The notes under the pieces are model-generated. The model searched no databases and was not told the origin of the DNA. It was given only the letters and a program-made list of their open reading frames with translations. The position numbers and the translations under genes are program-made. A stretch of 64,000 nt of DNA from a virus. Shown piece by piece: positions 2 through 45,832 of this stretch. Positions within the stretch are counted from its first letter, which is position 1. Each line of letters opens with the position of its first letter. Location: the IMG/VR virus record IMGVR_UViG_3300037418_004082; one strand, given 5' to 3'.

Positions 2-715
2 GGCCAGGCGCGAGCGCTGGACGTCGGCCGCCGGGGAGGGCAGTTGCTTGCGCACCTGGTGCGCCACCACCCGACCCACGTCGCTCGACAGGTGGTCGAG
101 CGCCGGCTGACAGTCGGCCAGCTCGTGCGGGCAGCAGACGAGGCCCGCCCGGTGGAGCTGCACAGCGATGTACGCCTTGACCTCTTCGCTCAAGGGCGTC
201 AGCCGGTCGATAACCCGCATGAGCCGGTGAGCCCACGCGATCTCGTGCGGGTCCAGCTCCTGCGTCAAGGTGAAGTCCACGGGCCGCCCGTTGAAGGCCA
301 CCGCGGCCTTCTCGAACATGTGCCAGTGCTCGAAGACGTCGGGGTCGTAGAGCGTCTGGCGGGCGAACAGGAGGCTCGTGGTCTCGTGGGCGGTCAAGCC
401 CAATGATTCCATCAGCGTTTCGGGCTCGTACTGCACCCAGACGGGCCCCAGCTCGCGTTCCGCGCGAACGGCCAAGCCCAGGGCGGTGCCGGCGGGCCGG
501 GCGGCCTGCTTCTGGACCCCGGGCTGTTCGAGGTGCTGGACGCCGGACGTCAGCAGCCGCGCGCCCACGCGCTCGGCCACCGCCTTGCGGTCGCGCGACG
601 AGTCCAGCAGGTCCGCAACCGACTTGAGGCCGGAGACCACCTGCTGGACCTGCTGCTCGCGTTTCGCGCGCTCCGCTTCGTCCGGCGCGCCGGGGACGCT
701 AGGCGTGGGGAGCAC
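2..715 (-). CDS. Conserved hypothetical, probably virion-associated protein; runs off the left edge
   Basis: Hand translation from GTG at 715 (VLPTPSVPG...YEPETLMESLG...FEKAAVAFNGRPVDF...) is open to position 1, with GC3-biased codons. Start overlaps the stop of 699..1748. Missing from the ORF track because it has no stop in the window. Confidence 0.75.
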   Translation of the reverse strand, partial: MLPTPSVPGAPDEAERAKREQQVQQVVSGLKSVADLLDSSRDRKAVAERVGARLLTSGVQHLEQPGVQKQAARPAGTALGLAVRAERELGPVWVQYEPETLMESLGLTAHETTSLLFARQTLYDPDVFEHWHMFEKAAVAFNGRPVDFTLTQELDPHEIAWAHRLMRVIDRLTPLSEEVKAYIAVQLHRAGLVCCPHELADCQPALDHLSSDVGRVVAHQVRKQLPSPAADVQRSRLA

Positions 716-1748
716 GCGCGCTGACCAGCAGCATGCGCTGCTGCGGAAGCTCCAGCTCCGCGAGCGCCGCCGCGAACTTGCGCATGTTGCCCCGCACCGC
801 GAACGCGCCGGGCGCGATGTCCGCGAGCACGTGGTCCGGGATGCCGTGCACGATGTCCTGCAGCGCCATGTGGACGCCCGCGAGCTTGACGTTGGCGGGG
901 TACATGTCCTCGTCCACCGGGCGGTACGCGATGGCCGGCAGGCCGATCAGACCGACGGCCTGGTCGAAGCCCGCGAGCTTGTCGAGCGTCGCGTAGGCGT
1001 CCCAGAACTCCGCGCCCAGCTCCTCGTCGTGTGCGAGCTTGCACAGCTCGTTGTACGCCGTCATGAAGCCGTCGTCGAAGCGGTGCACGGGACGGTACGC
1101 GTGCGGCAGGTCCACGTTGCGGGCGCTCGCCGCCTTGCGCAGCCCGTCGAGGTGCGCGGCCTCGTCGTGGTTCTGGCGGATGATTGCGACGCGCTGGCGC
1201 ACGGAGTCGATGACGTGCGACCGCTTCACGGCTTGCGCGGCCTGCTTCACGATGGCCGGCACCGGGATGTTGGCCTCGGTCAGTACCTCGTCGAGCACGG
1301 CGGCGGTCTTGTGGACCTCCTCCAGCGGCAGCTCGTTCGGCCGGAAGCTGTGCGCGGACGCGTAGGCCGCCTGGACCTCCGTCATCACGGGCGCCTCCGA
1401 CGCCGCCTTCTGCACCGGCTCCTCCAGCATGGGGAGGATGATGTCCTCCACACCGTGGATCGCGGCCGCGTACTTGATCTGGTCGCGGACGAAGTTGCGG
1501 TCGTCCACGTTGCCGATCTGGGAGGCGGTCTTCGTGAAGTAGAAGGCCGCCAGCCAGGTGTCCGCGGCCGTGTCGCAGGCGAACTTCTTGAGCTTGGGCC
1601 AGGCGTACAGGGTCTTCTCGGCGCGCGTGGCCTCGCCCGGGGCCTCGGCGGCCGCCTTCACGAACTCCGGGATGGCGGACTCGCCGTGGTCGTGGATGTG
1701 CCGGGTCAGCACCGCGCTGGTGGTGTCGTCGTGGTAGTCGAACAGCAT
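699..1748 (-). CDS. K-x-A-motif-rich hypothetical protein, putative head/internal virion protein
   Basis: ORF 699..1811; ATG at 1748 (MLFDY) follows an SD-like GGAGAC. 12 of 16 lysines are in K-x-A. Confidence 0.8.
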   Translation of the reverse strand: MLFDYHDDTTSAVLTRHIHDHGESAIPEFVKAAAEAPGEATRAEKTLYAWPKLKKFACDTAADTWLAAFYFTKTASQIGNVDDRNFVRDQIKYAAAIHGVEDIILPMLEEPVQKAASEAPVMTEVQAAYASAHSFRPNELPLEEVHKTAAVLDEVLTEANIPVPAIVKQAAQAVKRSHVIDSVRQRVAIIRQNHDEAAHLDGLRKAASARNVDLPHAYRPVHRFDDGFMTAYNELCKLAHDEELGAEFWDAYATLDKLAGFDQAVGLIGLPAIAYRPVDEDMYPANVKLAGVHMALQDIVHGIPDHVLADIAPGAFAVRGNMRKFAAALAELELPQQRMLLVSARAPHA

Positions 1749-1761
1749 GGAAGGCGTCTCC

Positions 1762-2178
1762 CTAGTAGGCCGGAAGGCCGACGGCCTTGCGCAGAGCGGC
1801 GTAGGTGTCACGATCGCGCAGGTAGCACACCGTCACGGTCTTGATGGAATTATCGCCCCGGCGCGCCGCGTTCACCAGAAGCACGTACTTCCAGCCGCGG
1901 AAGGTCACCCGCATCGACTCGCCGTCGCCATGACGGATGGGGGCGCCGTTGACGCGCTGGCCGTCGGACTCCAGCACCTTGGTGTTGATGGAGTCCGACG
2001 TCACGTGGAGCACTTCCAGCTTGTCGTTGTCCTCCTGGCTCTTGTTGAAGTGCGGATCTTCGTCCTCCTGGAGCACGAAGGTCGTCGCCGCGTTGACCCT
2101 GTCCTTCAACAGGGCCACGATCTCGGGCGTGTGCTCGGGCTGCTTACGCGGCGCGGCCGGTTTGATGTCCATCGTCAA
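1762..2178 (-). CDS. Hypothetical protein
   Basis: 138 aa ORF, SD GGAGG before TTG/ATG, in operon order. Confidence 0.75.
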   Translation of the reverse strand: MTMDIKPAAPRKQPEHTPEIVALLKDRVNAATTFVLQEDEDPHFNKSQEDNDKLEVLHVTSDSINTKVLESDGQRVNGAPIRHGDGESMRVTFRGWKYVLLVNAARRGDNSIKTVTVCYLRDRDTYAALRKAVGLPAY

Positions 2179-2187
2179 CTGTCCTCC

Positions 2188-3642
2188 TTAAGCGAGTGGT
2201 TGCCAACCTTGGATGTTGAGAACGGTCGCGACGGTGTTTAATGCCGTGTTGACCACCGTGCGTTCACCGCCCGCGCAGAAGAACGCGGCGAATACCGCGT
2301 CGTCATCCGTCACGATGGGCGCGTTGGCCGCGAAGCCACTTAGCCCCTGGTGAAGTGCATAGTTGAGTTGGTGATTGCCGCCCTGCACGGGCGGGATGAC
2401 CATGATCGATGCCGACAACGACAGGATCGACGCGAGGAAGTCGGCCACACCGTCGTCCATCGAGTCGATCAGGTTCGCCGCACGATCCGCGCCGTCGGCG
2501 ATCGTGTTGCCGGTCGTGGCGAGCGCCACCTGTCCCAGGTTCTGGGCCGCCACCGCACCCTCGCCGATCAGGTCGAGCGTCGCGATGGTCTTGTCCACGA
2601 AGGAACCCGCGCCGGGCACGAGCTTGTTGAGCGAGTCGCCCACGGTGATCGCGTGCCACACGTTCCACATGGCCGGGTCCCCGATCGTGGAGAGCGCGTC
2701 GAAGATGGTGGGCGCCTCGACGGTCAACGTGCCGGCGTCCATCTTCGCACCCTTGTGCGTCACGGCCACCGCGTGATCGCCCGCGCCCAGTTGCGACGGC
2801 AGCACCTGGCACTGCAGCGTATTTTCATCGATGAACGCGGTGGCTTGCGGGTGATCGTCCACCGTGATGAAGTCCTGCAGGTCGAAACCTTGGCCCTTCA
2901 CGCTGATGACGACGGCTTCGTCCGGCTTCACGGAGCTGGGCGTCACGGCGTCGATGTTGAACGACCCCGCCTTGAGCAGGTTGAGCGGATACACGTCGCC
3001 GTTCACGATCTTCGCGATGGGACTCGCCTCGAAGGCGCTCTTGATCCGCGTGGTCGCGGAGTCCCACAGGTCTTCCGGCAGCGACACGAGGTCGCTGAAG
3101 GCGTCGCTCACGCTGCCCAGGGCCGGGCTCGTGCCCAGCAGGTCCGACAGGGCCTTGCCGGCCGCCTCCGTGTCGCCCGTGAGCATCAGCAGCAGCACGA
3201 TGGCCGCGTCGAAGAGCGCTTCCGGCGGGCCGGCGAACAGGACGAGCACGCCGCCCGCGTAGGCGTCGTCGGCGAAGTCCGGGGCGGAGAGGTCGCTGTC
3301 GGGCGCCGTGATCCCCCGGCCGATGGTGTCGAGCACGCGCCCGAAGCCGCCGAAGTCCGGCCGCATGATGTACCAGTGGACCCCGCTGGTCCACGCGCTG
3401 TCCAGGAAGTTCGCGGCGGCGTCGGTGAGCGCCTGCACCTCGGTGCCTTGCTGGACCTGCTGGTTGTACCACGTGGCGAGCCGCTGGTTCACATCGCGCG
3501 CCTTCGTGGCCGTGCTCTGCAGGGGCGTCTTCACGCCGTCGAGTAGCCCGCGCGTGGCGTCGAGCAGGTGCGTGAACTCGTTGCCGGCGGGGCCGATGGA
3601 CTGCAGGTTGGCGGAAACCCAGAAGGGCGCGACGTTCGCCAT
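2188..3642 (-). CDS. Baseplate/tail-associated structural protein with a central IPT/TIG-like Ig domain
   Basis: NIDAVTPSSVKPDEAVVISVKGQGF...FIDENTLQCQV is an IPT/TIG pattern; gene lies in the spike operon. Confidence 0.65.
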   Translation of the reverse strand: MANVAPFWVSANLQSIGPAGNEFTHLLDATRGLLDGVKTPLQSTATKARDVNQRLATWYNQQVQQGTEVQALTDAAANFLDSAWTSGVHWYIMRPDFGGFGRVLDTIGRGITAPDSDLSAPDFADDAYAGGVLVLFAGPPEALFDAAIVLLLMLTGDTEAAGKALSDLLGTSPALGSVSDAFSDLVSLPEDLWDSATTRIKSAFEASPIAKIVNGDVYPLNLLKAGSFNIDAVTPSSVKPDEAVVISVKGQGFDLQDFITVDDHPQATAFIDENTLQCQVLPSQLGAGDHAVAVTHKGAKMDAGTLTVEAPTIFDALSTIGDPAMWNVWHAITVGDSLNKLVPGAGSFVDKTIATLDLIGEGAVAAQNLGQVALATTGNTIADGADRAANLIDSMDDGVADFLASILSLSASIMVIPPVQGGNHQLNYALHQGLSGFAANAPIVTDDDAVFAAFFCAGGERTVVNTALNTVATVLNIQGWQPLA

Positions 3643-5240: not shown

Positions 5241-6401
5241 CTAGTTCTTCGTGAGGTCCACGACGTGGCTCAAGATGTCGAGGCCGTCCACGAACGGGTG
5301 GCCCGCAGCGGCCGCGCCCGGCGGGAACGTGGGACCCATCGGGCTCACCAGTACCAGCTCGGTGTTGATGTACTGGATCAGCTTCTTCAGGAGGTTCACG
5401 GCGTCGGTGCCCATCACGGCGGGCTGGCCGCCCTCGCCGCCCAGGTGCACGTGCGGCGAGTTGATGGTCTTCTTCACGCCAATCGTCTCGACCGACGAGC
5501 CATCCACGTCGATCTCCTGGCTTCCGCCCACGATCAACTTCTGGTTCTTCGTGATGCCGACGCCTTGGTTGCCGTTGATCTCCGTCAACTCGTCGCCCTT
5601 GAGCCAGCGGTGCTGCACCCCGTTCTGGTCGAGCTGGAACGTAGCCACGGGCGTCTCGCAGTCCTTCGCGTGAAGCGTCCAGCTCAAGAAGGGGCTCCCC
5701 TCGCTGTCGCTCTTGCCCAGCACGAGGTCGAACGCGAACTTGTCGTCATAGGTGTTGGGGCCGTGCATGTTGCAACGCATGTGCAACTTGGTCTTGCCCT
5801 CGTCATTGAGGATCTCGATGTGCCCCCAGTCCGTGAACATCTGGAACTGACGTGACACCAGACGTGTGAGGTGGTCCACCTGCATCATCAGCAACTGGCA
5901 GAGGTCGTCTACCTTGATGCCGGCCACGCCGCCACGTAGCGCGAAGACGCTCGCGCCGTCGCTCGACCGGAAGCCCCGGTCGCCCGCGATCAAGTCGTAA
6001 GGCCGATGCGAGCGGAAGTTCTTGACCTTGTGCTCGACCACGCGGTACGGCGTGGGGGACCCGGTCAACGAAAGCCAGGTGTTGAGGGCCTTGTCGTAGT
6101 CGTCGTGCTCCGGCGGGCGGCCTTCGGCGAAGTAGCTGGCCGGCGGAAAACAATGCTCGATCGCCTCCATACCCAGCTCGTGCGTGAGCTTGCCCTTCCA
6201 TCCGGGCTCCGGCGTCGAAATGTCGCCTCCACCATCCGGGCCCGCTTCGCTGATAATTAAAACGTCGGGCAACACCTGACCGTCGGACGACAGTACCGAC
6301 GCCGTCATACGCACGGGATCCACCGTCAGGATGGTCACGTACCCGCGAGAGGCACTGTCCTCCTGGTGGACCTGATACGGATTGCGAGGCGAGCGGGACA
6401 A
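5241..6401 (-). CDS. Baseplate central spike (gp5/gpV-like)
   Basis: N-terminal OB-like strand set (TILTVDPVRMTASV...PEPG), C-terminal beta-helix repeats (EINGNQ, LIVGGSQEIDVDGSS) and HLGG...PAVMG...SPMGPT tail; adjacent to gp25-like and J-like genes. Confidence 0.75.
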   Translation of the reverse strand: MSRSPRNPYQVHQEDSASRGYVTILTVDPVRMTASVLSSDGQVLPDVLIISEAGPDGGGDISTPEPGWKGKLTHELGMEAIEHCFPPASYFAEGRPPEHDDYDKALNTWLSLTGSPTPYRVVEHKVKNFRSHRPYDLIAGDRGFRSSDGASVFALRGGVAGIKVDDLCQLLMMQVDHLTRLVSRQFQMFTDWGHIEILNDEGKTKLHMRCNMHGPNTYDDKFAFDLVLGKSDSEGSPFLSWTLHAKDCETPVATFQLDQNGVQHRWLKGDELTEINGNQGVGITKNQKLIVGGSQEIDVDGSSVETIGVKKTINSPHVHLGGEGGQPAVMGTDAVNLLKKLIQYINTELVLVSPMGPTFPPGAAAAGHPFVDGLDILSHVVDLTKN

Positions 6402-9336: not shown

Positions 9337-10944
9337 GTGCGCGAAGTCCTTCAAGCCATCCACCAGCAGGAGCAGCTCGGGGCACCACCCGGCGCCTACA
9401 CCGGACGCGTCGGTCGGACGGGCGGGGCCAAGGGGGTCCCCGACCGTTGGGTCGTGCTGCAGGACGTCCGGGCGGCGGATGGTCAGCCCGTCACCGATCA
9501 CGTCTGGTTCCCGGCCACGCACGAGTTCGCGCCTTACGCCCACGGCGAGCGGGTGCGCTTCGTCGCCAAGGTCAACCCCTACTTCAAGGGGCCCAGCCAC
9601 GCCCGCGAGCTGGACTACGCGTTCAGCCGACCCAAGGAGGTCATGAAAGCCGCCATGCTGCAATCTGGAGAGCCCGGCTACGCCCGTCTGTTCGCCGCGC
9701 GCTTGCGCAACCGCCTGGGCCAGGGCGACGCCTCGACGTGGGCGATCGAGCAGGAGTATAAGGCGGCCATGGAGATGAACCCCGACGCCCAGCGCAAGCT
9801 CAACGCCCTGGAAGGCTCCGAAGGCGGGTGCTTCGCCGACGGGGTGATGGAGGCGGCCAAGGAGCTGGCACGCGCGGCCGGTCGCGACCTCGTGCTACCG
9901 GAGGACGTGGTGGCGGCCGTCCGTCAGACGCCCAAGGAGGCCAGCCTGTACCGGGCCAAGATCCTCGCCAACCAGGCACTCGCACCGCACGAGATGGATG
10001 GCTTCCACGCGTTGCTGGACCGCTTCACGCGCCTCAAGGCCCGCCAGCAAGGCTTCGGTCCCGACACCCTGATCGAGGGCGGCTACGCGCACAACCCGGC
10101 GTCGAAGTCGAACTTCGTGGGCTTCAACGTGAGCCACGGCGAGCAGGCAGAGCGCGGCGGTGGCCGCTTCACGGTGCAGCACCACGTGGGCGACCCGACC
10201 GAAGGTGTGACCGACTGGCTCGCGACGGCGGAGGCCCACCGTGGGCAAGGCCAAGCCAAGCGCACGGCCGCGCTGATGGACGACGTGATGGCCGCCATGG
10301 GAGCGCGTCGCCTGGTCAGCCGACCGCAGCACCCGGCCGTCGCCAAGTACCGGGCCCAGATGGGCTACAAGCCGGGCGGCAACCCGTTCATGGGCGAGGC
10401 GGAGAAGTACGTGCCGGACACCCCGGCCGTGGCCCGGGACCGGGCGCGCTTCAAGGAGGCCGCGGAGAAGGCGCCGACGCGTGACGACTGGAAGACCCGG
10501 CCGGGCGTGCGCGCCATGGTCACTGACAGCGACGGCAAGGTGCTCCTGCTGCGTCGCCCCGACGACGAGGAGTTCCACCCCGGCACGTGGAACCTGCCGG
10601 GCGGGGCCAAGGAGGACGACGAGACCTTCCTGAACGGCGCGCTGCGCGAGCTGAAGGAGGAGACCAACCTCGACGCCTACCCGACCAGCCAGGCCCACGA
10701 GTTCAAGTTCCCGGGCGGCATGGGCAAGGCGTTCATGATGAGCCTGCGGGACGGCGCCAAGCTGAAGCTGGATCCGCGCGAGGTGGACGAGGCCGGCTGG
10801 TTCTACCCGGACCACCTGCCCAAGAAGCTCTTCCCGCAGACCGCGAGCACCGTCAAGGCGCTCTTGAAGTTGCAGGCTTCCCGCGAGAAGTCTGCCGGTT
10901 TCCGCCCGTACGAGGTGTACCTGGGCACGTACTTCCACGAGTAG
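9337..10944 (+). CDS. Multidomain protein: OB-like N-terminal domain, histone-fold-like segment, GNAT-like domain, Nudix hydrolase
   Basis: Nudix box GGAKEDDETFLNGALRELKEETNL; GNAT motif A HRGQGQA with ...AKYRAQMGY; LARAAGRDLVLPEDVVAAVR; TDHVWF...RVRFVAKVNPY...DYAFSRP. Confidence 0.8.
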   Translation: MREVLQAIHQQEQLGAPPGAYTGRVGRTGGAKGVPDRWVVLQDVRAADGQPVTDHVWFPATHEFAPYAHGERVRFVAKVNPYFKGPSHARELDYAFSRPKEVMKAAMLQSGEPGYARLFAARLRNRLGQGDASTWAIEQEYKAAMEMNPDAQRKLNALEGSEGGCFADGVMEAAKELARAAGRDLVLPEDVVAAVRQTPKEASLYRAKILANQALAPHEMDGFHALLDRFTRLKARQQGFGPDTLIEGGYAHNPASKSNFVGFNVSHGEQAERGGGRFTVQHHVGDPTEGVTDWLATAEAHRGQGQAKRTAALMDDVMAAMGARRLVSRPQHPAVAKYRAQMGYKPGGNPFMGEAEKYVPDTPAVARDRARFKEAAEKAPTRDDWKTRPGVRAMVTDSDGKVLLLRRPDDEEFHPGTWNLPGGAKEDDETFLNGALRELKEETNLDAYPTSQAHEFKFPGGMGKAFMMSLRDGAKLKLDPREVDEAGWFYPDHLPKKLFPQTASTVKALLKLQASREKSAGFRPYEVYLGTYFHE

Positions 10945-10950
10945 GTTCGT

Positions 10951-11628
10951 ATGTCCCAGGTTAGCCGCTGGTCAGCGCGTCGTGACGACATCGTTCATCT
11001 CTTGAAGAACGGCATGTCGATCGCGGAGCTGGCCGAAACATACGGTGTTAAACCCAAGCACATGCGACGCGTGTTGCTACGAATGCACATCGACGCGTGC
11101 TGGCTGCGTAACAAGTATTGGGCCAATGTGCGTAATCTGCGAGCATTGATGGAGTCTGGTTACAGCCGTACGCAGATTGCACACCTGTACCACGTGGACG
11201 AGAACCTGGTCGAGAAGTACCTCAAGTTCCACGACCTGGATCCGCGTGATCCCGTGACCAGGTTCAAGGCCAAGTTGGCGGTTCGGGAGAACGGCTGCAT
11301 CGAGTGGACCGGGTACGTCGAGAAGGCGTCCGGCTACGGCGTGTTCACGTACAAGACGGGAACGCGTGATTATTTCTATGCGCACCGCTTCAGCTTCGTG
11401 CTGCAGCGCGGGGACATCCCGGCGGGGATGACGCTCGACCACACCTGCGTCAACAAGCGGTGCGTGAACCCGGACCACCTGGAGGTGGTGACCGCCTCGG
11501 AGAACAGCAAGCGCATGCACGCCCGCCGGAACATGCTCTGCGAGATCGCCAAGCGGCTCCTGCAGTCGGAGTACCCCTTCGTAGACCGGATCGCCCTGTT
11601 GGACCCCCTCACCCCCGGAGGTAGCTAA
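10951..11628 (+). CDS. HNH homing-type endonuclease with two N-terminal HTH-like repeats
   Basis: CIEWTG...GYG...AHR...LDHTCVNKRCVNPDHLEVVTASEN; SIAELAETYGV and SRTQIAHLYHV repeats. Confidence 0.9.
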   Translation: MSQVSRWSARRDDIVHLLKNGMSIAELAETYGVKPKHMRRVLLRMHIDACWLRNKYWANVRNLRALMESGYSRTQIAHLYHVDENLVEKYLKFHDLDPRDPVTRFKAKLAVRENGCIEWTGYVEKASGYGVFTYKTGTRDYFYAHRFSFVLQRGDIPAGMTLDHTCVNKRCVNPDHLEVVTASENSKRMHARRNMLCEIAKRLLQSEYPFVDRIALLDPLTPGGS

Positions 11629-11629
11629 A

Positions 11630-11953
11630 ATGCGCCCTGCAATCGTCTATCTATTGTTGAAGGAAGCCTCCGATCAGGCCCCCGTCGCTCCCCCGCCGCT
11701 CGACCTGATGGTCGTCGGCTCCGACGTGAAGGGCCACCTGGCGGCCCGGTCCAAGGGCTACGTCCCGCTCGTCCTGCTGGGCGAGGAAGGCCAGGAACCG
11801 ACGCACCTGGTCTACACCCACCGCCGGGGGTACAACGCCGCCGTGCACGCCCTGCACGCGGACCGGTCGTCCTTCATGGCGCACGCCCGCGGGCTGCTGG
11901 CGCCGCCCACCCCCACCCCTGGGGGTAACCCCTTCTTGCCGGCGCAGGCGTAA
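11630..11953 (+). CDS. Hypothetical protein with an N-terminal KEA motif
   Basis: 107 aa, last gene before the terminator. Confidence 0.7.
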   Translation: MRPAIVYLLLKEASDQAPVAPPPLDLMVVGSDVKGHLAARSKGYVPLVLLGEEGQEPTHLVYTHRRGYNAAVHALHADRSSFMAHARGLLAPPTPTPGGNPFLPAQA

Positions 11954-18378: not shown

Positions 18379-19569
18379 ATGACCCGTACCGCTTCCGCCC
18401 CCGCCCTCTCCCTGGCCGCCGTTTCCGGCAAGCTGCAGGCCATCCGCCAGGAGCTGAACGCCGTGTGCTTCGAGCGCGGCCCCGTCGTCAACGCCATCCT
18501 GCTCGCGCTCGTCGCGAAGCAGAACGTCATCCTGCTGGGGCCCCCGGGCACCGGCAAGTCGATGCTCGTGCGCGAGGTCGTCCGCCGCGTGACCAACACG
18601 CGCGACTTCGAGAAGATGCTCAACAAGTTCATCTCGCCCGAAGAGCTGTTCGGCCCCGTGTCGATGACCAAGCTCCAGCAGGACGTGTTCGAGCGCGTGA
18701 TCGACGGCTATTTGCCGGACGTGCACATCGCGTTCCTCGACGAGGTCGGCAAGTGCTCGACGGCGGCGCTGAACACGATGCTGGACGTGATGATCGACAA
18801 GGTCTTCCGCAACGGCAACCAGACCATCAACGTGCCGATGATGTCGGTCATCGGCGCCTCGAACGAGGTGCCGTCGGAGGAGGGCCTGCAGGCGCTGTGG
18901 GACCGCTTCCTGCTGCGCTTCGAGGTCAAGCGCCTGTCGCCCGCCGGCCGCTTCAAGATGATGCGCGCGGAGTGCGACGGCCTGTACAACCAGGCGCCCA
19001 CGGCCACGATGGACCTGCAGGAGCTGCAGTGGATCCAGGCGCAGCTCTACAACGTCGTCGTGTCCGACGACGTGCTGTCCGACCTGAACGCGCTGGTCGG
19101 CGAGCTGGACCAGGAAGGCGTATCGCCGACCGACCGCCGCGTCGCGTTGTGCACGCGGTTGGTGCGTGCCAGCGCGCTCATCAACGGCCGCATGGACGTG
19201 ACCGAAGACGACGTCGAGGTACTGCAGGACGTGCTGTGGGACAACCTGGAAGACATCCAGACGGCCCGCAAGTACGTCATCAAGCACTCGAACCCGCTGA
19301 AGAGCCGGGCCGTCGAGATCCTCGACTCCGTCAAGGCGACGCACGAGAAGGTGATGGACCTGGTGCGGCAGCACAACGGCGACGTCACGCACACCCAGCA
19401 GCAGACCATGGCCGACAACAGCGAGGTCATGAAGCTCAAGAAGGAGCTGCAGGAGTCCATCAAGCGCAACTCCGGCGCGCCCTGCCTGCAGGACTTGAAG
19501 GACATGCTGGACGACGTCGAGCGCCTGCAGAAGGAGTTCGTCGAAGCCGGCACCGGCCTCAAGATGTAA
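18379..19569 (+). CDS. RavA/MoxR-family AAA+ ATPase
   Basis: Walker A GPPGTGKS, SPEELFGP, Walker B IAFLDEVGK, IGASNE, ALWDRFLLR, SPTDRR. Confidence 0.92.
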   Translation: MTRTASAPALSLAAVSGKLQAIRQELNAVCFERGPVVNAILLALVAKQNVILLGPPGTGKSMLVREVVRRVTNTRDFEKMLNKFISPEELFGPVSMTKLQQDVFERVIDGYLPDVHIAFLDEVGKCSTAALNTMLDVMIDKVFRNGNQTINVPMMSVIGASNEVPSEEGLQALWDRFLLRFEVKRLSPAGRFKMMRAECDGLYNQAPTATMDLQELQWIQAQLYNVVVSDDVLSDLNALVGELDQEGVSPTDRRVALCTRLVRASALINGRMDVTEDDVEVLQDVLWDNLEDIQTARKYVIKHSNPLKSRAVEILDSVKATHEKVMDLVRQHNGDVTHTQQQTMADNSEVMKLKKELQESIKRNSGAPCLQDLKDMLDDVERLQKEFVEAGTGLKM

Positions 19570-19623
19570 CGCCCCGGGCACGCGAGCGCCGTTGCTCGCG
19601 TGCCCTCCCTTGGAGGCATCCCC

Positions 19624-21099
19624 ATGAACATCATACGCACCTCGCCCATGGACGTCGGCAACTGGTCCGTCGCCCTGGCGCAGAGCGTACCGCTCCAGAC
19701 GACGGTGACCCAGGGAGAACAGAAGTTCCCGGGTTTCCACGACCTGGTGGCGGACGTGTTCCAGGCGCTCTATCAGCCGGCTCCCGTCTTCGACAACCAG
19801 AAGACGATCACGCTGCACGAGTTCCTGCTACGCGACATCGTCTACACCCAGGAGTTCGCCAACCTGGCGCCGATCAGCCAGACCAACCTCATCAACAGCG
19901 CGGTCGCCGCCAACGTTCTCGCGGAGCAGATCCTGCAACGCATGAGCACGTCGATGGCCGACCGGTTGGCGGAGGAATGGCGCGCCTCCAACGCTCTGGC
20001 CCAGGCCGAAGCGGAGGTGGCGACCCTCCAGGCCGCGGTCGCCGCCAACCCGGGTGACCCCGCGTTGCAGCAGCAACTGGCCGAAGCCCAGGCCCGGCTG
20101 CAGGCCGCGTACGACGAGCTGACCGCGCAGCTCCCCATCGAGACCCTGCAAGGCGACACCGATAAGATGCGCAACACGGCGCGCCAGGCGTCGGCGCAGG
20201 CCATCACCGCGGTCAACGAGCTGATCGAGCTGGAGACCGTCTTCGGCACCGATCGCGCGGCCAGCCTGCAGACGAAGCTGCACCTGCAGCAGAAGATCCG
20301 CGGCAACCGCAAGATGCAGATGCTCGCGGCCTTGGCGGGCCGTATGCGCCGCATCGCGCTCGCCAAGAAGAACTCGGTCGTTCGGCACTTCAAGCAGGAG
20401 ATCATGGGCGTCACGGTGGGCAAGGACCTGGCCCACGTGGTGCCCGCGGAGCTGGGCTTGTTGGGCAACCCCACCACCAAGCCGCTCTTCCTCAAGAAGT
20501 TCCACGAGGGCCAGCTCATGGTCTACGACCAGAAGGGCGAGGAGAAGCTGGGCCAAGGGCCGATGGTCCTCCTCGTGGACTCCACGGGCTCGATGCGGGG
20601 CGAGCCGGAGGTGTGGAGCAAGGCCGTCGTGCTGGGCTTCCTCGCCATCGCGGAGTCGGAGAAGCGCGACGTGTTCGTCGCGGCCTTTGGCTCGTCAGGC
20701 GACGACCTCGTGACGTGGTCGTTCCTCTACAAGAGCGACCCGCGCAGCGTCAAGTCGTCGGACATCCTGGGTTTCGCGGAATACTTCATGGACGCGAGCG
20801 GCACCGATCTGGAGAAGCCGCTGCTCTGGGCCGCGAAGTTCATCGCCAAGCCCGACAAGCCGCAGAACGCGGCCGACGTCGTGATGTTGACCGACGGCGA
20901 GAGCCGTTTCAGCGGCCGGTTCCTGCAGCAATGGAAGACCCTGCAGGAAGCCACCGGGTTCCATTCGTTCGGCGTGATGATCGGCACGTCAAGCGGTATG
21001 GCAACCCTTCGTCAAGCCATCCAAAACGTCGTGTACGTGACCGACCTGACCCAGGACGGTGACGTGACCGACGTGCTATTCAAAGGAGTCGTACACTAA
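19624..21099 (+). CDS. VWA-domain (ViaA-like) partner of the AAA+ ATPase
   Basis: MIDAS DSTGS, GTDLEKPL, VMLTDGE; G-x-DL-x-x-x-x-P-x-EL upstream. Confidence 0.9.
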   Translation: MNIIRTSPMDVGNWSVALAQSVPLQTTVTQGEQKFPGFHDLVADVFQALYQPAPVFDNQKTITLHEFLLRDIVYTQEFANLAPISQTNLINSAVAANVLAEQILQRMSTSMADRLAEEWRASNALAQAEAEVATLQAAVAANPGDPALQQQLAEAQARLQAAYDELTAQLPIETLQGDTDKMRNTARQASAQAITAVNELIELETVFGTDRAASLQTKLHLQQKIRGNRKMQMLAALAGRMRRIALAKKNSVVRHFKQEIMGVTVGKDLAHVVPAELGLLGNPTTKPLFLKKFHEGQLMVYDQKGEEKLGQGPMVLLVDSTGSMRGEPEVWSKAVVLGFLAIAESEKRDVFVAAFGSSGDDLVTWSFLYKSDPRSVKSSDILGFAEYFMDASGTDLEKPLLWAAKFIAKPDKPQNAADVVMLTDGESRFSGRFLQQWKTLQEATGFHSFGVMIGTSSGMATLRQAIQNVVYVTDLTQDGDVTDVLFKGVVH

Positions 21100-43709: not shown

Positions 43710-45782
43710 CTACCCCACGTTCGTCATGAACTGGCCCCGGCTCACGCTGGCGTTGATCAGTGTGGAGCGGAACTTGTCGGCCTCGCGGAAGACCCGCAGG
43801 ACCTCTTGCTCCGTCAGGAACTTGACCTTGTCCAAGCGCACCAGGGTGAGGATGCGGCCCAGCTTATCGCCGACCTCGCCCAGCAGGCCGATCAGCTCCT
43901 GGGCGATCTGCATGACCTCGACGTCCGGCAGCTCGTTGGTGGCGAAGCCCATCAGGATGTCGCTGATGTCCGGCAGGCCCTCCACCTCGGGACCGATCGC
44001 CGCCGACGTGTCGATCACCATGCCCGGGTCCTCGCCCTGCTGCGTCATCCCCACGGCGTCCGCGCGGCCGCTGTTGTCGAAGGCGACCTTGAGGCTCATC
44101 AGGTCCATCGCCAGCTTCACGGCACCCGGCGACAACACGCCCGGCTTGCGGTCGAGTGACGGCTCCAACACGCTGGCCTCGAACGTGTCGTACTTGTAGT
44201 TGCTGATGTCGTTCAGGATGGAGAGCGCCTTGTCGGGCGTCATCGCGTAGCGGTGCACGAGGTGCTGCACGAACTGCCCTCGCGTCAACGGGCTGCTGGG
44301 CGCGCCGTGGTGCTCGGAGATGCGCCAGAGGCCACCGCCCTTGAACACCTTCACCTTGACCACGTGACGCTCCGTGTCCTCGCGCGAGTCGGCCAGCGTG
44401 TCGAAGCGGGAGTCCGCGTCGAGCTTGGTGGGGTTGATGGCGAAGACGCTGTAGCCTTCCTTCGGGTAGGCGATCTCGCCGGGGCCCATGCGGTAGACGC
44501 CGCGCTGGTTGCCGAAGGAGATCGTGATGATGGGCGCCGTCTCGTTCGAGACGAGAGGCTTGACCTGCAGGACCGTGGCACCACCCTGGGTGTGGTGCTT
44601 GCCGGCGATGCGGAAGGGCACCGACGCCTCGTTGGTGACGTGGTTGAACAGGAACGCCATCTCGCCAGGCTTCAGCTCCGCGCGGCGGTAGATGTGGCGC
44701 ATCTCGTCGCCGCTGGGCACGGCGGACGGCGCGGCGCGCCAGTGCGTGCCGTGGTCCACCGCGTAGCCGTCCGTGCAGACCGCGAGCTTGTAGCCGCAGG
44801 GCAGGCCGTCCAGGTGGAAGGTGCGGAAGACGCGCGCGGTGGTCTCCTTCTTCAGGCCGGGCAGCGCGATCTCGTACCAGCCCGGGTCCTTCACGCCCAT
44901 CTGCGAGACGGCGTCGAACTTGCGACGGTCGTGCTCCTCGACGGTCAGGTGCGCGCGGCGCAGCGGGCTCGCGTCGGGCGCGGTCGCCATGATCGGGTCG
45001 GCCTTCTTGGCCTCCTTGACCCGGGTATCGAGCACCACGACGTCGTTGCGCAGCAAGGACGCGACGTGCTCCGGCTGGTTCAGCTCGCGCAGCAGGCTCG
45101 CGGCCTTGGGCATCTCCAGCTCCGTGAACTGGTTGTCCACGCCCACCTGCACGGCGCCCGACGGACGGGCCTCCATGGTCACCAGGTGGCCGGCAGCGGC
45201 CGCCTTGACGATGCGAGCGGGGTCGGTGGTCGCCTTGGCCGTGGCGAGCACGTGCTTCATCGTGGTCGCGTAGACGGGGAAGTCGGCGGCCGCGGCCTTC
45301 ATCGCTTCGTCGATCTCCTTCACGCGGGCGTCGTCCATCACCAGGATCTGGCTGGAGAGCTTCACGCGCTCGAACGAACGCATCACGTGCATGGGGCTGC
45401 GGCGGCCACCCTGGCGGTCGCTCGCGAACGGCGGCACCATCTCCAGGAACACGTCCCGGTCGATCGACGCCGGCATCCGCTCGACCACGGTGCCCATGCC
45501 GACGTTGTTGAACACGAACATCAGGTTGGGCTCCGACAGGTAGCAGAAGCGCGGCTCGCCGGCCTGGTGGAAGATGAGCGTGTCGAAGGGCTTCAGCTCG
45601 AACTCGCGCACGACGTACGGCACGACGGCGTTGTTCACCGGCACGACGCCATAGCCGTTGCCTTCCTCGTCCACGCCCAGCTCCTTCGTCTCGACGACGT
45701 AGGGCTCCAGCACGGGAAACTGCTGCAGGAGCGCTTGGATGATATAGGCACCCCACTGGACGGGATTCAAAGGCAGGCGCAT
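43710..45782 (-). CDS. Large K-x-A-enriched protein, putative virion structural protein
   Basis: SD AAGGAG before ATG 45782; 8 K-x-A among 34 Lys; C-terminal LGRILTLVR helix. Confidence 0.75.
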   Translation of the reverse strand: MRLPLNPVQWGAYIIQALLQQFPVLEPYVVETKELGVDEEGNGYGVVPVNNAVVPYVVREFELKPFDTLIFHQAGEPRFCYLSEPNLMFVFNNVGMGTVVERMPASIDRDVFLEMVPPFASDRQGGRRSPMHVMRSFERVKLSSQILVMDDARVKEIDEAMKAAAADFPVYATTMKHVLATAKATTDPARIVKAAAAGHLVTMEARPSGAVQVGVDNQFTELEMPKAASLLRELNQPEHVASLLRNDVVVLDTRVKEAKKADPIMATAPDASPLRRAHLTVEEHDRRKFDAVSQMGVKDPGWYEIALPGLKKETTARVFRTFHLDGLPCGYKLAVCTDGYAVDHGTHWRAAPSAVPSGDEMRHIYRRAELKPGEMAFLFNHVTNEASVPFRIAGKHHTQGGATVLQVKPLVSNETAPIITISFGNQRGVYRMGPGEIAYPKEGYSVFAINPTKLDADSRFDTLADSREDTERHVVKVKVFKGGGLWRISEHHGAPSSPLTRGQFVQHLVHRYAMTPDKALSILNDISNYKYDTFEASVLEPSLDRKPGVLSPGAVKLAMDLMSLKVAFDNSGRADAVGMTQQGEDPGMVIDTSAAIGPEVEGLPDISDILMGFATNELPDVEVMQIAQELIGLLGEVGDKLGRILTLVRLDKVKFLTEQEVLRVFREADKFRSTLINASVSRGQFMTNVG

Positions 45783-45832
45783 GATAATCTCCTTGGCTGG
45801 GTTCAAGCTAATTATCATCCGAAGCAGGTAAC

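What the first reader, a model, noticed from the sequence alone, without database searches (positions are those of the whole stretch)
9337..10944. Candidate polyprotein: OB-like, histone-fold-like, GNAT and Nudix domains separated by K-x-A sites
Seen: only 5 of 31 Lys are in K-x-A (K104AA, K142AA, K200EA, K373EA, K518SA), and all fall at or near apparent domain borders. K104 is after the OB-like domain, K142 and K200 bracket a 58 aa segment, K373 is between the GNAT and Nudix domains, and K518 is after the Nudix domain. The bracketed segment (nt 9769-9942; NPDAQRKL...ELARAAGRDLVLPEDVVAAVR) resembles helix 2-loop 2-helix 3 of archaeal histones (HMf-type DARITL...KLARHAGRKTIKAEDIELAVR), with a 4-residue Gly-rich insert. 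Established: histone folds bind DNA, GNATs acetylate Lys, Nudix enzymes cleave nucleoside diphosphate derivatives including ADP-ribose and dinucleotide signals. Inference: this gene in the virion operon may encode a packaged precursor cut into a histone-like peptide, an acetyltransferase and a Nudix enzyme for co-injection.
Basis: partly seen in the sequence, partly recalled or inferred. Interest (0 to 1): 0.82.

Follow-up and report, generated by a model that had tools for sequence, protein, structure and literature searches.

The report
Tag-linked fusion of phage cargo enzymes
A gene of an uncultured giant phage joins five small protein modules, among them an acetyltransferase-like and a Nudix enzyme, through the same K-x-A linker that ends an address tag on this phage group's virion-type proteins. 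It is therefore probably loaded into the virus particle and perhaps cut into separate injected enzymes, but no experiment shows this, and the supposed histone piece is not a histone.

Summary
Five is what chance gives (4.2 expected). Their placement is not chance: four of five lie within 4 residues of module ends defined independently by homologues (Fisher p = 8e-4), and all five align with K-x-A in relatives.

K-x-A is the invariant end of a ~12-residue N-terminal tag (M-x-P-Y-x-A-Y-[ML]-x-K-x-A). In related jumbo-phage contigs, most genes around a fused beta-beta' RNA polymerase carry this tag, including stand-alone copies of the GNAT-like and Nudix modules. Fusions keep K-x-A at the junction and often lose the rest of the tag. 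A nearby virion-region protein has 12 of 16 Lys in K-x-A, and its 31%-identical orthologue has 12 of 15.

Domain calls:
- Nudix: firm.
- GNAT: moderate.
- N-terminal OB-like barrel: fold level only.

Best reading (about 0.45): a tag-linked polyvalent cargo protein, packaged and cut at K-x-A like T4 internal proteins. Cleavage, packaging and the protease are untested. This scan has noted T4-like [ILV]-x-E tags on other phages; the K-x-A code and its retention at fusion junctions are the new parts.

The parts
9337..10944 (+). Whole ORF, 535 aa, GTG start, stop at 10942-10944
   Evidence: GC3 0.91; identical protein P0002 on JGI contig L001
9337..9645 (+). Module 1, aa 1-103: N-terminal helix plus small beta-barrel (OB-like), with a conserved T-D-H-V-W motif
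   Evidence: Stand-alone or differently fused homologues P0021, P0045, P0056, P0060. AF2 model pLDDT 85, pTM 0.73. Structural neighbours are OB-fold SSBs: Foldseek PDB E 0.02, VIA best Z 6.8, BFVD E 1.2e-4
9646..9654 (+). Junction K104-A-A
   Evidence: K in 4 of 5 homologues and A106 invariant. Modelled as a low-confidence linker (pLDDT < 50)
9667..9726 (+). Module 2, aa 111-130: short basic helix (G-E-P-G-Y-A ... R-L-G-Q-G)
   Evidence: The same ~20-aa element occurs in P0003, P0004 and P0006 in a different order relative to the other modules. Helix at aa 115-126 in the model
9733..9768 (+). Internal copy of the tag, aa 133-144, ending in K142-A-A
   Evidence: Aligns with the N-terminal tags of P0004 and P0006. 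Helix at aa 134-144 in the model
9769..9933 (+). Module 3, aa 145-199: helical domain with a conserved G-G-C-x-A-D loop and a strand-helix G-R-D-x-V-x-x-x-D-V end. AAA+-lid-like, not a histone
   Evidence: pLDDT ~88-90. VIA: RuvBL1 lid Z 9.0 (rmsd 3.0, 65 aa), BchI Z 8.6, Rpt3 C-domain Z 7.5 (rmsd 2.0, 54 aa); histone 1f1e only rank 31, Z 5.7. Foldseek top 50 nearly all AAA+ proteins. Pfam AAA_lid_2 E 0.03
9934..9942 (+). Junction K200-E-A
   Evidence: Aligns with the K-S-A / K-S-S end of the N-terminal tag of the stand-alone GNAT-like proteins P0049 and P0030
9943..10452 (+). Module 4, aa 203-372: GNAT-like acetyltransferase domain, motif A R-G-Q-G-Q-A at aa 302-307
   Evidence: Pfam Acetyltransf_1 E 1.6e-3, 19.1 bits, just under the 20.7 cutoff. 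Profile of query + P0030 + P0049 hits Naa30 7l1k E 1.9e-4 and YycN E 0.009. Motif A conserved in all three
10453..10461 (+). Junction K373-E-A
   Evidence: Stand-alone P0030 ends one residue before it. K-x-A upstream of Nudix in 7 of 7 fused relatives against 3 of 56 other Nudix proteins
10483..10881 (+). Module 5, aa 383-515: Nudix hydrolase, Nudix box at aa 422-445 with the R-E-x-x-E-E glutamates intact
   Evidence: Pfam NUDIX E 3.4e-18, 66.4 bits against cutoff 21.1; phrog_1198; PDB Nudix hits to 1.6e-8; no subfamily reaches its cutoff
10888..10896 (+). Junction K518-S-A after the Nudix domain
   Evidence: Equivalent K-K-A in P0003 and K-T-A in P0008, each followed by a tag-like Y-x-x-Y stretch
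10900..10941 (+). C-terminal partial tag, aa 522-535 (F-R-P-Y-E-V-Y-L ...), lacking a closing K-x-A
   Evidence: Best match in the protein to an HMM built from N-terminal tags of other proteins. P0003, P0008, P0045 and P0060 also end in tag-like sequence
10951..11628 (+). HNH homing-endonuclease gene directly after the ORF (context)
   Evidence: Pfam HNH_3 E 1.2e-12; phrog_826 E 4.9e-35
11630..11953 (+). 107-aa ORF with a canonical N-terminal tag ending K-E-A (context: the only N-terminally tagged gene in this window)
699..1811 (-). Virion-region protein saturated with K-x-A (context: independent sign that K-x-A is a functional motif)
   Evidence: 12 of 16 Lys in K-x-A, 2.8 expected, 0 of 1000 shuffles reach it. 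Its 31%-identical orthologue L012:10423-11508 has 12 of 15, 1.6 expected

Best explanation
The gene encodes a modular, polyvalent cargo protein of an uncultured high-GC jumbo phage. The modules are an OB-like barrel, a short basic helix, an AAA+-lid-like helical domain, a GNAT-like acetyltransferase and a Nudix hydrolase.

In this phage lineage, many proteins encoded around the virion-type multisubunit RNA polymerase begin with a ~12-residue tag, M-x-P-Y-x-A-Y-[ML]-x(1-3)-K-x-A. The modules of this protein occur elsewhere as separate genes, some carrying that tag at the N-terminus and some a tag-like C-terminus. The fusion arose by joining such genes, and a K-x-A remains at every junction (shown).

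By analogy with the phage T4 capsid targeting sequence and its gp21 cut site, I infer that the aromatic part of the tag addresses proteins to the prohead. I infer that K-x-A is the site of the head maturation protease (cut after Ala, P3 = Lys, or after Lys). The fusion would then be packaged, cut into single modules and ejected with the DNA and the virion RNA polymerase.

The Nudix module is fused or adjacent to the polymerase-cluster SNF2 helicase in relatives. It would then act early on nucleotide-linked substrates (RNA 5' ends or caps, or nucleotide signals), and the GNAT-like module on host proteins. Both substrates are guesses.
For: Modularity:
- Each module aligns separately to other proteins: the N-domain alone in P0045/P0060, GNAT-like alone in P0030/P0049, Nudix alone in P0015/P0016.
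- Nudix also occurs with SNF2 in P0004/P0006, and modules 2 and 3 occur in another order in P0006.

The tag:
- 18 of 49 genes in the RNAP-cluster loci L002, L003, L007 and L009 start with the core motif, against 2 of 813 internal 20-aa windows (p ~ 1e-34; sequences).
- It is conserved at protein level with synonymous codon differences.
- Tagged proteins include the beta-beta'N RNAP fusion and the SNF2 helicase.

Virion link:
- The closest cultured phage with the same fused RNAP is Salmonella phage Arash. Its virion mass spectrometry finds RNAP beta as the most abundant protein, plus beta', sigma and the adjacent helicase (PMC10585845).
- Relatives of this Nudix are fused to a portal family (phrog_15528) and to DUF2213.

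K-x-A as a separate functional element:
- It is invariant at the tag end although its distance from the aromatic core varies.
- It is kept at fusion junctions where the P-Y-x-x-Y part is lost. In the query these are K200 and K373. In P0004/P0006 it is the Nudix|SNF2 junction, whereas the unfused helicases in L003 and L010 carry the full tag.
- All five query sites are homologous to such sites.
- 12 of 16 Lys in a nearby virion-region protein are K-x-A, and 12 of 15 in its 31%-identical orthologue.

Precedent:
- T4 CTS (M-K-T-Y-Q-E-F-I-A-E) is cut once by the prohead protease (PMC3012670).
- Giant-phage ejection proteins and a vRNAP subunit carry protease-removed propeptides (PMC5694885).
- Polyvalent phage proteins with GNAT and NUDIX associations are predicted to be packaged and processed (PMC5512222).
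Against: - There is no proteomic or biochemical evidence for packaging or cleavage in this lineage.
- The maturation protease lies outside the window and could not be examined, so its specificity is unknown.
- The query's own N-terminus (M-R-E-V-L ...) is not a canonical tag. Its tag copies are internal and C-terminal, and T4-type targeting is known only for N-terminal tags.
- The gene follows baseplate genes. It is not in the head or RNAP cluster.
- Internal K-x-A is not avoided in tagged proteins: observed/expected is 0.82, against 0.81 in untagged ones. K-x-A alone therefore cannot be a sufficient cut signal.
- The number of K-x-A in the query equals chance.
- Arash, the only cultured relative with virion data, has no such tag.
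- Keeping the distal end of a tag at a fusion point could be a by-product of small deletions rather than selection.
Confidence: 0.45

Rival explanations
1. The protein works as one uncut multidomain enzyme, packaged or cytoplasmic. The K-x-A triplets are only leftovers of the N-terminal tags of the genes that were fused, sitting in flexible Lys/Ala-rich linkers. The tag itself may still be an address or docking helix that is never cleaved.
For: The K-x-A count equals chance. K-x-A is not avoided inside tagged proteins. Small deletions that fuse neighbouring genes would naturally keep the distal end of the downstream tag. Multidomain Nudix fusions that look uncut are common among relatives (P0009-P0017). 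There is no peptidase domain in the protein.
Against: K-x-A is kept at at least six kinds of junction in different proteins while flanking linker sequence diverges. K-x-A saturates one conserved protein in two distant orthologues, which a passive leftover does not explain. The spacing between the aromatic core and K varies while K-x-A itself does not.
Confidence: 0.3
2. The tag and its K-x-A end are recognised by something other than the head assembly machinery. Candidates are a docking site for the virion RNA polymerase complex, a modification site for a dedicated enzyme, or an export signal. The fusion would then be a client of that system.
For: Tagged genes cluster tightly around the RNAP genes rather than around capsid genes. 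An earlier case in this scan (e1-127136) showed a shared N-terminal tag linked to a radical-SAM enzyme rather than to capsid sorting. Many tagged proteins have Gly/Ala-rich hydrophobic stretches.
Against: No conserved modifying enzyme was seen next to the tagged genes in four loci. The RNAP-cluster homologues in Arash are virion proteins. The tag resembles the T4 CTS in length, position and aromatic spacing. Hydrophobic stretches are also typical of ejection proteins (PMC5694885).
Confidence: 0.12
3. The protein is a tail or baseplate passenger. The conserved OB-like N-domain anchors it to the baseplate or tail tip, and the variable C-terminal modules are delivered through the tail, as with effector-carrying spike proteins of contractile injection systems.
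For: The gene follows gp25-like and Baseplate_J-like genes. In the syntenic contig L005 the same slot holds P0021, which has the same N-domain, a K-x-A, a tag-like stretch and a different C-terminal part. A gp5-like spike gene is nearby.
Against: The same N-domain also stands alone directly upstream of the RNAP gene in L003/L004. Its structural neighbours are nucleic-acid-binding OB folds, not spike or PAAR proteins. The junction motif is the one used by RNAP-cluster proteins.
Confidence: 0.1
4. One reading: aa 143-200 is a histone-fold peptide that binds DNA after release.
For: Local resemblance of A-G-R-D-L-V-L-P-E-D-V-V-A-A-V to the L2-alpha3 region of archaeal histones. An archaeal histone (1f1e) appears in the structural list at Z 5.7, rmsd 2.2 over 60 residues.
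Against: No histone family appears at E <= 1 in Pfam or at E <= 10 in PDB sequence searches with the segment or its profile. Thirty AAA+ lid domains outrank the histone (Z 9.0 to 5.8). The Foldseek top 50 holds no histone. The conserved G-G-C loop breaks the would-be long central helix, and an intrachain bridge closes the domain as a monomer.
Confidence: 0.03

Closest known systems
Phage T4 internal proteins (IPI, IPII, IPIII, Alt) with the capsid targeting sequence, cut by prohead protease gp21
   Same: A ~10-13-residue N-terminal leader is shared by unrelated proteins. It has an aromatic residue at position 4, a second aromatic three residues on and then an aliphatic residue, and it ends in a fixed three-residue motif. 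The cargo is enzymes and small proteins injected with the DNA.
   Different: The closing motif is K-x-A, not [LI]-x-E. The tag also occurs internally and at C-termini. Here it links modules within one polypeptide, giving a polyprotein-like cargo that T4 does not have. Neither cleavage nor packaging is shown.
Polyvalent proteins of phages and conjugative elements (Iyer, Burroughs, Anand, de Souza, Aravind 2017, PMC5512222)
   Same: Several unrelated effector-type domains sit in one polypeptide encoded among virion genes. GNAT and NUDIX are among the associated domains. The protein is predicted to be delivered with the DNA and processed into units.
   Different: Those proteins are proposed to be processed by their own zincin-like peptidase domain. 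This one has no peptidase domain and instead carries a repeated short motif at every junction, pointing to a trans-acting protease.
Ejection proteins and virion RNA polymerase of phiKZ-like giant phages (phiKZ, 201phi2-1, SPN3US), processed by the prohead protease at [SAG]-x-E
   Same: A jumbo phage with a virion multisubunit RNAP. Head proteins carry propeptides removed at a three-residue motif, and some proteins have multiple cut sites (PMC5694885, PMC10052503).
   Different: Propeptides there are mostly long (>100 aa) and not a shared short tag. The motif ends in Glu. The RNAP here is a beta-beta'N fusion of the Arash type, not the phiKZ split type.
Salmonella phage Arash (OQ632216) virion RNAP cluster
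   Same: Same beta-beta'N fused RNAP (33% identity over 100% of the query), with a separate beta'C and an adjacent helicase. All are detected in virions.
   Different: Arash proteins carry no such tag, and no Nudix/GNAT fusion was seen in the region examined.
AAA+ ATPase lid (C-terminal helical) domain, for module 3
   Same: The predicted fold superposes on lids of RuvBL1, ORC1/Cdc6, BchI and Rpt3 (Z 9.0-6.7). There is a weak Pfam AAA_lid_2 match over the strand-helix motif.
   Different: No ATPase core is attached. There is no significant sequence match. Z is below the level the tool regards as decisive for helical domains.

Membership tests
Nudix hydrolase superfamily | Match to Pfam PF00293 above the gathering score | tested here: met
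   66.4 bits against cutoff 21.1, E 3.4e-18, aa 387-504
Nudix hydrolase superfamily | Nudix box G-x5-E-x7-R-E-U-x-E-E-x-G-U with the catalytic glutamates | tested here: met
   aa 422-445 read directly from the translation. R-E-L-K-E-E is present; the last Gly is Asn in the query and Gly in relatives
Nudix hydrolase superfamily | Assignment to a substrate-defined subfamily (MutT, RppH, NudC, ADP-ribose pyrophosphatase) | tested here: inconclusive
   All NCBIfam equivalogs score far below their cutoffs (best 39.4 against 245). PDB hits are spread over many specificities
GNAT acetyltransferases | Match to a Pfam GNAT model above the gathering score | tested here: not met
   Acetyltransf_1 scores 19.1 bits against cutoff 20.7, E 1.6e-3, covering only profile positions 46-116. 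P0030 has no hit and P0049 has E 0.14
GNAT acetyltransferases | Acetyl-CoA-binding motif A ([RQ]-x-x-G-x-[GA]) on the beta4-alpha3 element, and profile similarity to solved GNATs | tested here: met
   R-G-Q-G-Q-A at aa 302-307, conserved in P0030 and P0049. The three-sequence profile hits Naa30 7l1k at E 1.9e-4 and YycN at E 0.009 over this region
Histone fold | Sequence match to histone or archaeal-histone families | tested here: inconclusive
   No histone family at E <= 1 in Pfam. None at E <= 10 in PDB with the segment or its profile
Histone fold | alpha1-L1-alpha2-L2-alpha3 with one long central helix, histones as nearest structural neighbours | tested here: not met
   The model (pLDDT ~88-90 here) has helices at aa 149-162 and 164-180 broken at the conserved G-G-C, and an intrachain bridge between about aa 146 and aa 185. 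AAA+ lids fill ranks 1-30 (Z 9.0-5.8); histone 1f1e is rank 31, Z 5.7. This rests on a model, not a structure
AAA+ lid domain | Four-helix lid fold with the strand-helix motif | tested here: met
   RuvBL1 2xsz Z 9.0 (rmsd 3.0, 65 aa); BchI 1g8p Z 8.6 (2.3, 60); Rpt3 C-domain 2dzn_B Z 7.5 (2.0, 54). Foldseek top hits are AAA+ proteins, E 0.05-0.3. Fold level only
AAA+ lid domain | Attached to a P-loop AAA+ ATPase core | tested here: not met
   No ATPase domain in the 535-aa protein in Pfam, PHROGs or NCBIfam. I therefore call it lid-like, not an AAA+ protein
OB fold | Five-stranded closed beta-barrel with OB-fold proteins as nearest neighbours | tested here: inconclusive
   Model pLDDT 85. All top hits are OB folds but weak: Foldseek PDB E 0.02, TM ~0.5; VIA best Z 6.8; BFVD E 1.2e-4 to uncharacterised ~115-aa phage proteins and SSBs
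T4-type capsid-targeting-sequence cargo | Short N-terminal leader shared by otherwise unrelated proteins of the phage | tested here: met
   For the lineage: 18 of 49 N-termini against 2 of 813 internal windows; alignment. In this window it holds only for ORF 11630-11953
T4-type capsid-targeting-sequence cargo | The protein in question itself starts with the leader | tested here: not met
   The N-terminus M-R-E-V-L-Q ... is conserved with N-domain homologues but has no P-Y-x-x-Y core and no K-x-A. The tag copies are internal (aa 133-144) and C-terminal (aa 522-535)
T4-type capsid-targeting-sequence cargo | Leader ends in the cut motif of the phage's own prohead protease; protein found clipped in virions | not testable with these tools
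   The protease and capsid genes lie outside the window and no whole genome is held. There is no proteome for this lineage
Polyvalent proteins (Iyer et al. 2017) | Two or more unrelated effector or catalytic domains in one polypeptide, encoded among virion or late genes | tested here: met
   GNAT-like plus Nudix plus three further modules. gp25-like and Baseplate_J-like genes lie directly upstream
Polyvalent proteins (Iyer et al. 2017) | Own peptidase (zincin-like MPTase) domain for processing | tested here: inconclusive
   No peptidase family found in Pfam, PHROGs or NCBIfam. This feature is frequent in the class but not obligatory

The most novel reading that the evidence does not exclude
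A lineage of uncultured high-GC jumbo phages uses its own address-and-cut code, an aromatic P-Y-x-x-Y core followed by K-x-A. The code loads a large protein cargo into the capsid: virion RNA polymerase, SNF2 helicase, Nudix, GNAT-like enzymes and many membrane-active small proteins. Because the cut site works in any position, genes for cargo can be fused and split freely. This protein would then be a true phage polyprotein, matured by the head protease into four or five injected proteins.
Probability: 0.35. Interest if true: 0.75.

Novelty: new variant of a known kind. Interest (0 to 1): 0.6.

Why it matters
If the K-x-A tag is an address-and-cut signal, the injected proteome of a whole group of uncultured giant phages could be read from sequence alone. 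That proteome includes their early RNA polymerase, a helicase, and Nudix and acetyltransferase enzymes that would meet the host before any phage gene is expressed.

It would also show that capsid cargo can be built as polyproteins, with modules fused and split around a portable cut site. That mode of evolution is familiar from RNA viruses but not described for tailed phages. It would give a second, chemically different targeting tag for loading foreign proteins into capsids, alongside the T4 one.

If the protein is not cut, it is still a clean example of domain shuffling at conserved linkers.

Tried and rejected
- Closer relatives and whole genomes:
  - tblastn and megablast against cultured phages found only distant Nudix hits or nothing.
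  - IMG/VR scan: nothing.
  - Word-based protein searches with aa 100-205 and aa 196-380 found only the protein itself or nothing.
  - No whole genome is held for the window, and the 203-kb relative could not be searched whole. The prohead protease and capsid protein could therefore not be examined.
- HMM built from 25 N-terminal tags: too short for HMMER. In the query it finds only the C-terminal partial tag, at 1.7 bits. I relied on homologous alignments instead.
- Avoidance test: if K-x-A were a sufficient cut site it should be depleted inside tagged proteins. Observed/expected is 0.82 in 20 tagged proteins and 0.81 in 29 untagged ones, so there is no signal.
- A global alignment of all module homologues (A2) collapsed onto the Nudix domain and was discarded.
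- Histone fold: no sequence hit and structural rank 31. Rejected.
- AAA+ lid by sequence: only E 0.03 in Pfam and nothing in PDB. Kept as fold-level likeness only.
- PHROGs and Pfam on ten tagged proteins, and on the proteins between the baseplate genes and the putative portal, gave no usable names. I therefore do not call the K-x-A-rich protein a scaffold.
- Arash proteins were checked for the tag: none.
- The ESM Atlas was unavailable.
- No complex prediction was run, because no binding claim is made.
Full report
**The object.** The + strand ORF at 9337-10944 gives 535 residues from a GTG start. It has the third-position GC of real genes in this 65% GC window (0.91). The same protein is called on a 12-kb JGI metagenome contig.

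The window is phage DNA with no close cultured relative. Directly upstream lie a gp25-like baseplate wedge gene, a weak Baseplate_J gene and a 208-aa unknown. Directly downstream lies an HNH homing endonuclease and then a small ORF.

**The observation.**
- Count: 31 Lys, of which five are K-x-A, at 104, 142, 200, 373 and 518. Five is what composition predicts (4.2 +/- 1.8 in shuffles), so the count is not a finding.
- Positions: an exhaustive HMMER search of 1.8 billion representatives shows that the protein falls into pieces that align separately.
  - aa 1-107 aligns to small proteins P0021, P0045, P0056 and P0060.
  - aa 199-374 aligns to stand-alone proteins P0030 and P0049.
  - aa ~376-516 aligns to thousands of Nudix proteins.
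- Against these independently defined ends, four of five K-x-A Lys lie within 4 residues of an end. Only 1 of 26 other Lys does (Fisher p = 7.7e-4).

**What K-x-A is.** The relatives carry a short N-terminal tag. P0030, P0049, P0007, P0015 and P0016 begin with M-x-P-Y-x-A-Y-[ML]-x-K-x-[AS].

I fetched the contigs that encode the relatives. They are large phage contigs of 203, 175 and 132 kb. In them, the genes around a fused beta-beta'N RNA polymerase nearly all begin with this tag. Tagged genes include the polymerase itself, the SNF2 helicase, the GNAT-like protein and many unknowns (alignment).
- The core motif is at 18 of 49 N-termini, against 2 of 813 internal windows.
- Codons differ synonymously, so the conservation is in the protein.
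- The distance from the aromatic core to the Lys varies by up to three residues, but K-x-A itself is nearly invariant.

**The five sites in the query are all homologous to tag-associated K-x-A.**
- K200-E-A aligns with the tag end of P0030 and P0049.
- K142-A-A closes a complete internal tag that aligns with the N-terminal tags of P0004 and P0006.
- K373-E-A precedes the Nudix domain, as K-x-A does in 7 of 7 close fused relatives but in only 3 of 56 other Nudix proteins. In P0015 and P0016 the N-terminal tag sits in that place.
- K104-A-A follows the N-domain. K is present in 4 of 5 homologues and the Ala is invariant, followed there by tag-like sequence.
- K518-S-A follows the Nudix domain, as K-K-A and K-T-A do in P0003 and P0008.
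- The query then ends in a partial tag (aa 522-535) without a closing K-x-A.

Where genes are fused, the P-Y-x-x-Y part is often gone while K-x-A stays. The helicases of L003 and L010 carry the full tag. The Nudix-SNF2 fusions P0004 and P0006 keep only K-R-A-A and K-A-A-A at the junction.

**Independent sign that K-x-A is functional.** Following a note of the first-stage reader (e1-5811394), I verified the protein at 699-1811 (-). It has 12 of 16 Lys in K-x-A, with 2.8 expected and 0 of 1000 shuffles reaching that. Its orthologue on the syntenic 132-kb contig is 31% identical and has 12 of 15, with 1.6 expected. No family search names this protein, so I do not call it a scaffold. A protein studded with one triplet every 20-35 residues is what a protease-dismantled assembly protein looks like.

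**Link to the virion.** The closest cultured phage with the same fused polymerase is Salmonella phage Arash (33% identity over the whole 1431-aa query). In its published virion proteome the polymerase beta subunit is the most abundant protein, and beta', a sigma factor and the adjacent helicase are also present (PMC10585845). Arash lacks the tag, so this shows only that the homologous gene cluster encodes virion proteins.

Relatives of this Nudix are also fused to a portal family (phrog_15528) and to DUF2213 proteins.

**The domains.**
- Nudix: secure, with an intact Nudix box. No subfamily can be assigned.
- GNAT-like module: just under Pfam's cutoff. It has a conserved motif A, and as a three-sequence profile it hits Naa30 at E 1.9e-4.
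- N-domain: models confidently (pLDDT 85) as a helix plus a small barrel. All its neighbours are OB folds, though weakly.
- The "histone-like" segment: modelled together with module 2 from an alignment with P0004, P0006 and P0007 pieces.
  - In the confident part (pLDDT ~88-90) the nearest solved structures are AAA+ lid domains: RuvBL1 Z 9.0, ORC1 8.8, BchI 8.6, Rpt3 C-domain 7.5 at rmsd 2.0 over 54 residues.
  - An archaeal histone appears only at rank 31, Z 5.7.
  - Foldseek's top 50 are nearly all AAA+ proteins and none is a histone.
  - Sequence searches find no histone. Pfam's only hint is AAA_lid_2.
The Z values are below what the tool regards as decisive for helical domains, so I say lid-like fold, not AAA+ homologue.

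**Mechanism.**
- Shown: a modular fusion whose junctions are tag-derived K-x-A sites, in a lineage where that tag marks virion-type RNAP-cluster proteins.
- Inferred: the tag works like the T4 capsid targeting sequence. That is a ~10-residue leader on unrelated internal proteins, cut once by the prohead protease (PMC3012670; PMC5694885). On this reading K-x-A is the protease site, and the fusion is loaded and cut into single modules.
- From my own knowledge, not tested here: a P3/P1 type of motif with Ala at P1 has a precedent in herpesvirus assemblins, which share the fold of phage prohead proteases.
- The concept also matches the polyvalent proteins of Iyer et al. (PMC5512222), except that processing would be in trans at a repeated motif rather than by a built-in peptidase.

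**Against the mechanism.**
- There is no proteome for this lineage.
- The protease was out of reach.
- The query lacks a canonical N-terminal tag.
- The gene sits by the baseplate genes.
- K-x-A is not avoided inside tagged proteins.

The main rival is an uncut multidomain enzyme with vestigial linkers. A tail-borne passenger, or a tag read by another system, remain possible.

**Novelty.** This scan has already noted T4-like tags ending in [ILV]-x-E on several other giant phages, so tags as such are not new. What is new here is a different closing motif (K-x-A), its use at N-terminal, internal and C-terminal positions, and its retention at gene-fusion junctions, which gives a polyprotein-like cargo. 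I found no paper describing this. I rate it a new variant of a known kind, of moderate to good interest, resting on comparative evidence only.

Noticed in passing
window 699-1811 (-); L012:10423-11508: A 370-aa protein (true start probably the Met 21 codons in) with 12 of 16 Lys in K-x-A, spaced every 20-35 residues. Its orthologue at 31% identity has 12 of 15. No family match. It could be a protease-dismantled assembly protein.
   Followed up: partly
window 43710-45818 (-): A 702-aa protein with 8 K-x-A against 3.3 expected (p = 0.014). No family match.
   Followed up: partly
window 10951-11628 (+): An HNH homing-endonuclease gene sits between the ORF, which ends in a truncated tag, and a tagged 107-aa ORF. 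Small HNH genes also follow the tagged helicase genes in L002 and L003. The conserved tag-coding DNA may serve as a homing site.
   Followed up: no
L002, L003/L004, L007, L009, L010: Nearly every gene around the beta-beta'N RNA polymerase of related 130-200-kb phage contigs starts with the tag. Many of these proteins have Gly/Ala-rich hydrophobic stretches like membrane-active ejection proteins. A sigma-like gene and a >1500-aa SLT-domain protein are in the same cluster.
   Followed up: partly
L007:8724-14069: The fused RNA polymerase gene of this relative is 1781 aa and carries a faint LAGLIDADG hit, suggesting an intein. It also lacks the N-terminal tag that the L002 and L003 polymerases have.
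   Followed up: no
L012:14313-14504: A 63-aa tagged microprotein follows a 674-aa protein that is modestly K-x-A-rich (7 against 3.6 expected).
   Followed up: partly
window 5241-6401 (-) and 2188-3642 (-): Weak T4 gp5 C-terminal (spike beta-helix) hits in the 386-aa protein, and an IPT/TIG Ig-like domain in the 484-aa protein. This minus-strand block is probably tail or baseplate rather than head.
   Followed up: no
P0013, P0005, P0023 (relatives of the Nudix module): The same Nudix clade is fused N-terminally to a Hint/intein-like domain (P0013) and to DUF2213 (P0005, P0023). It also heads proteins of 1000-1800 aa with no other recognisable domain (P0009, P0011, P0012, P0017).
   Followed up: partly
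window 18379-21099 (+): An ATPase of phrog_19600 (E 2e-80) is followed by a 499-aa phrog_24053 protein. This is a conserved pair of unknown role in the early or middle region.
   Followed up: no
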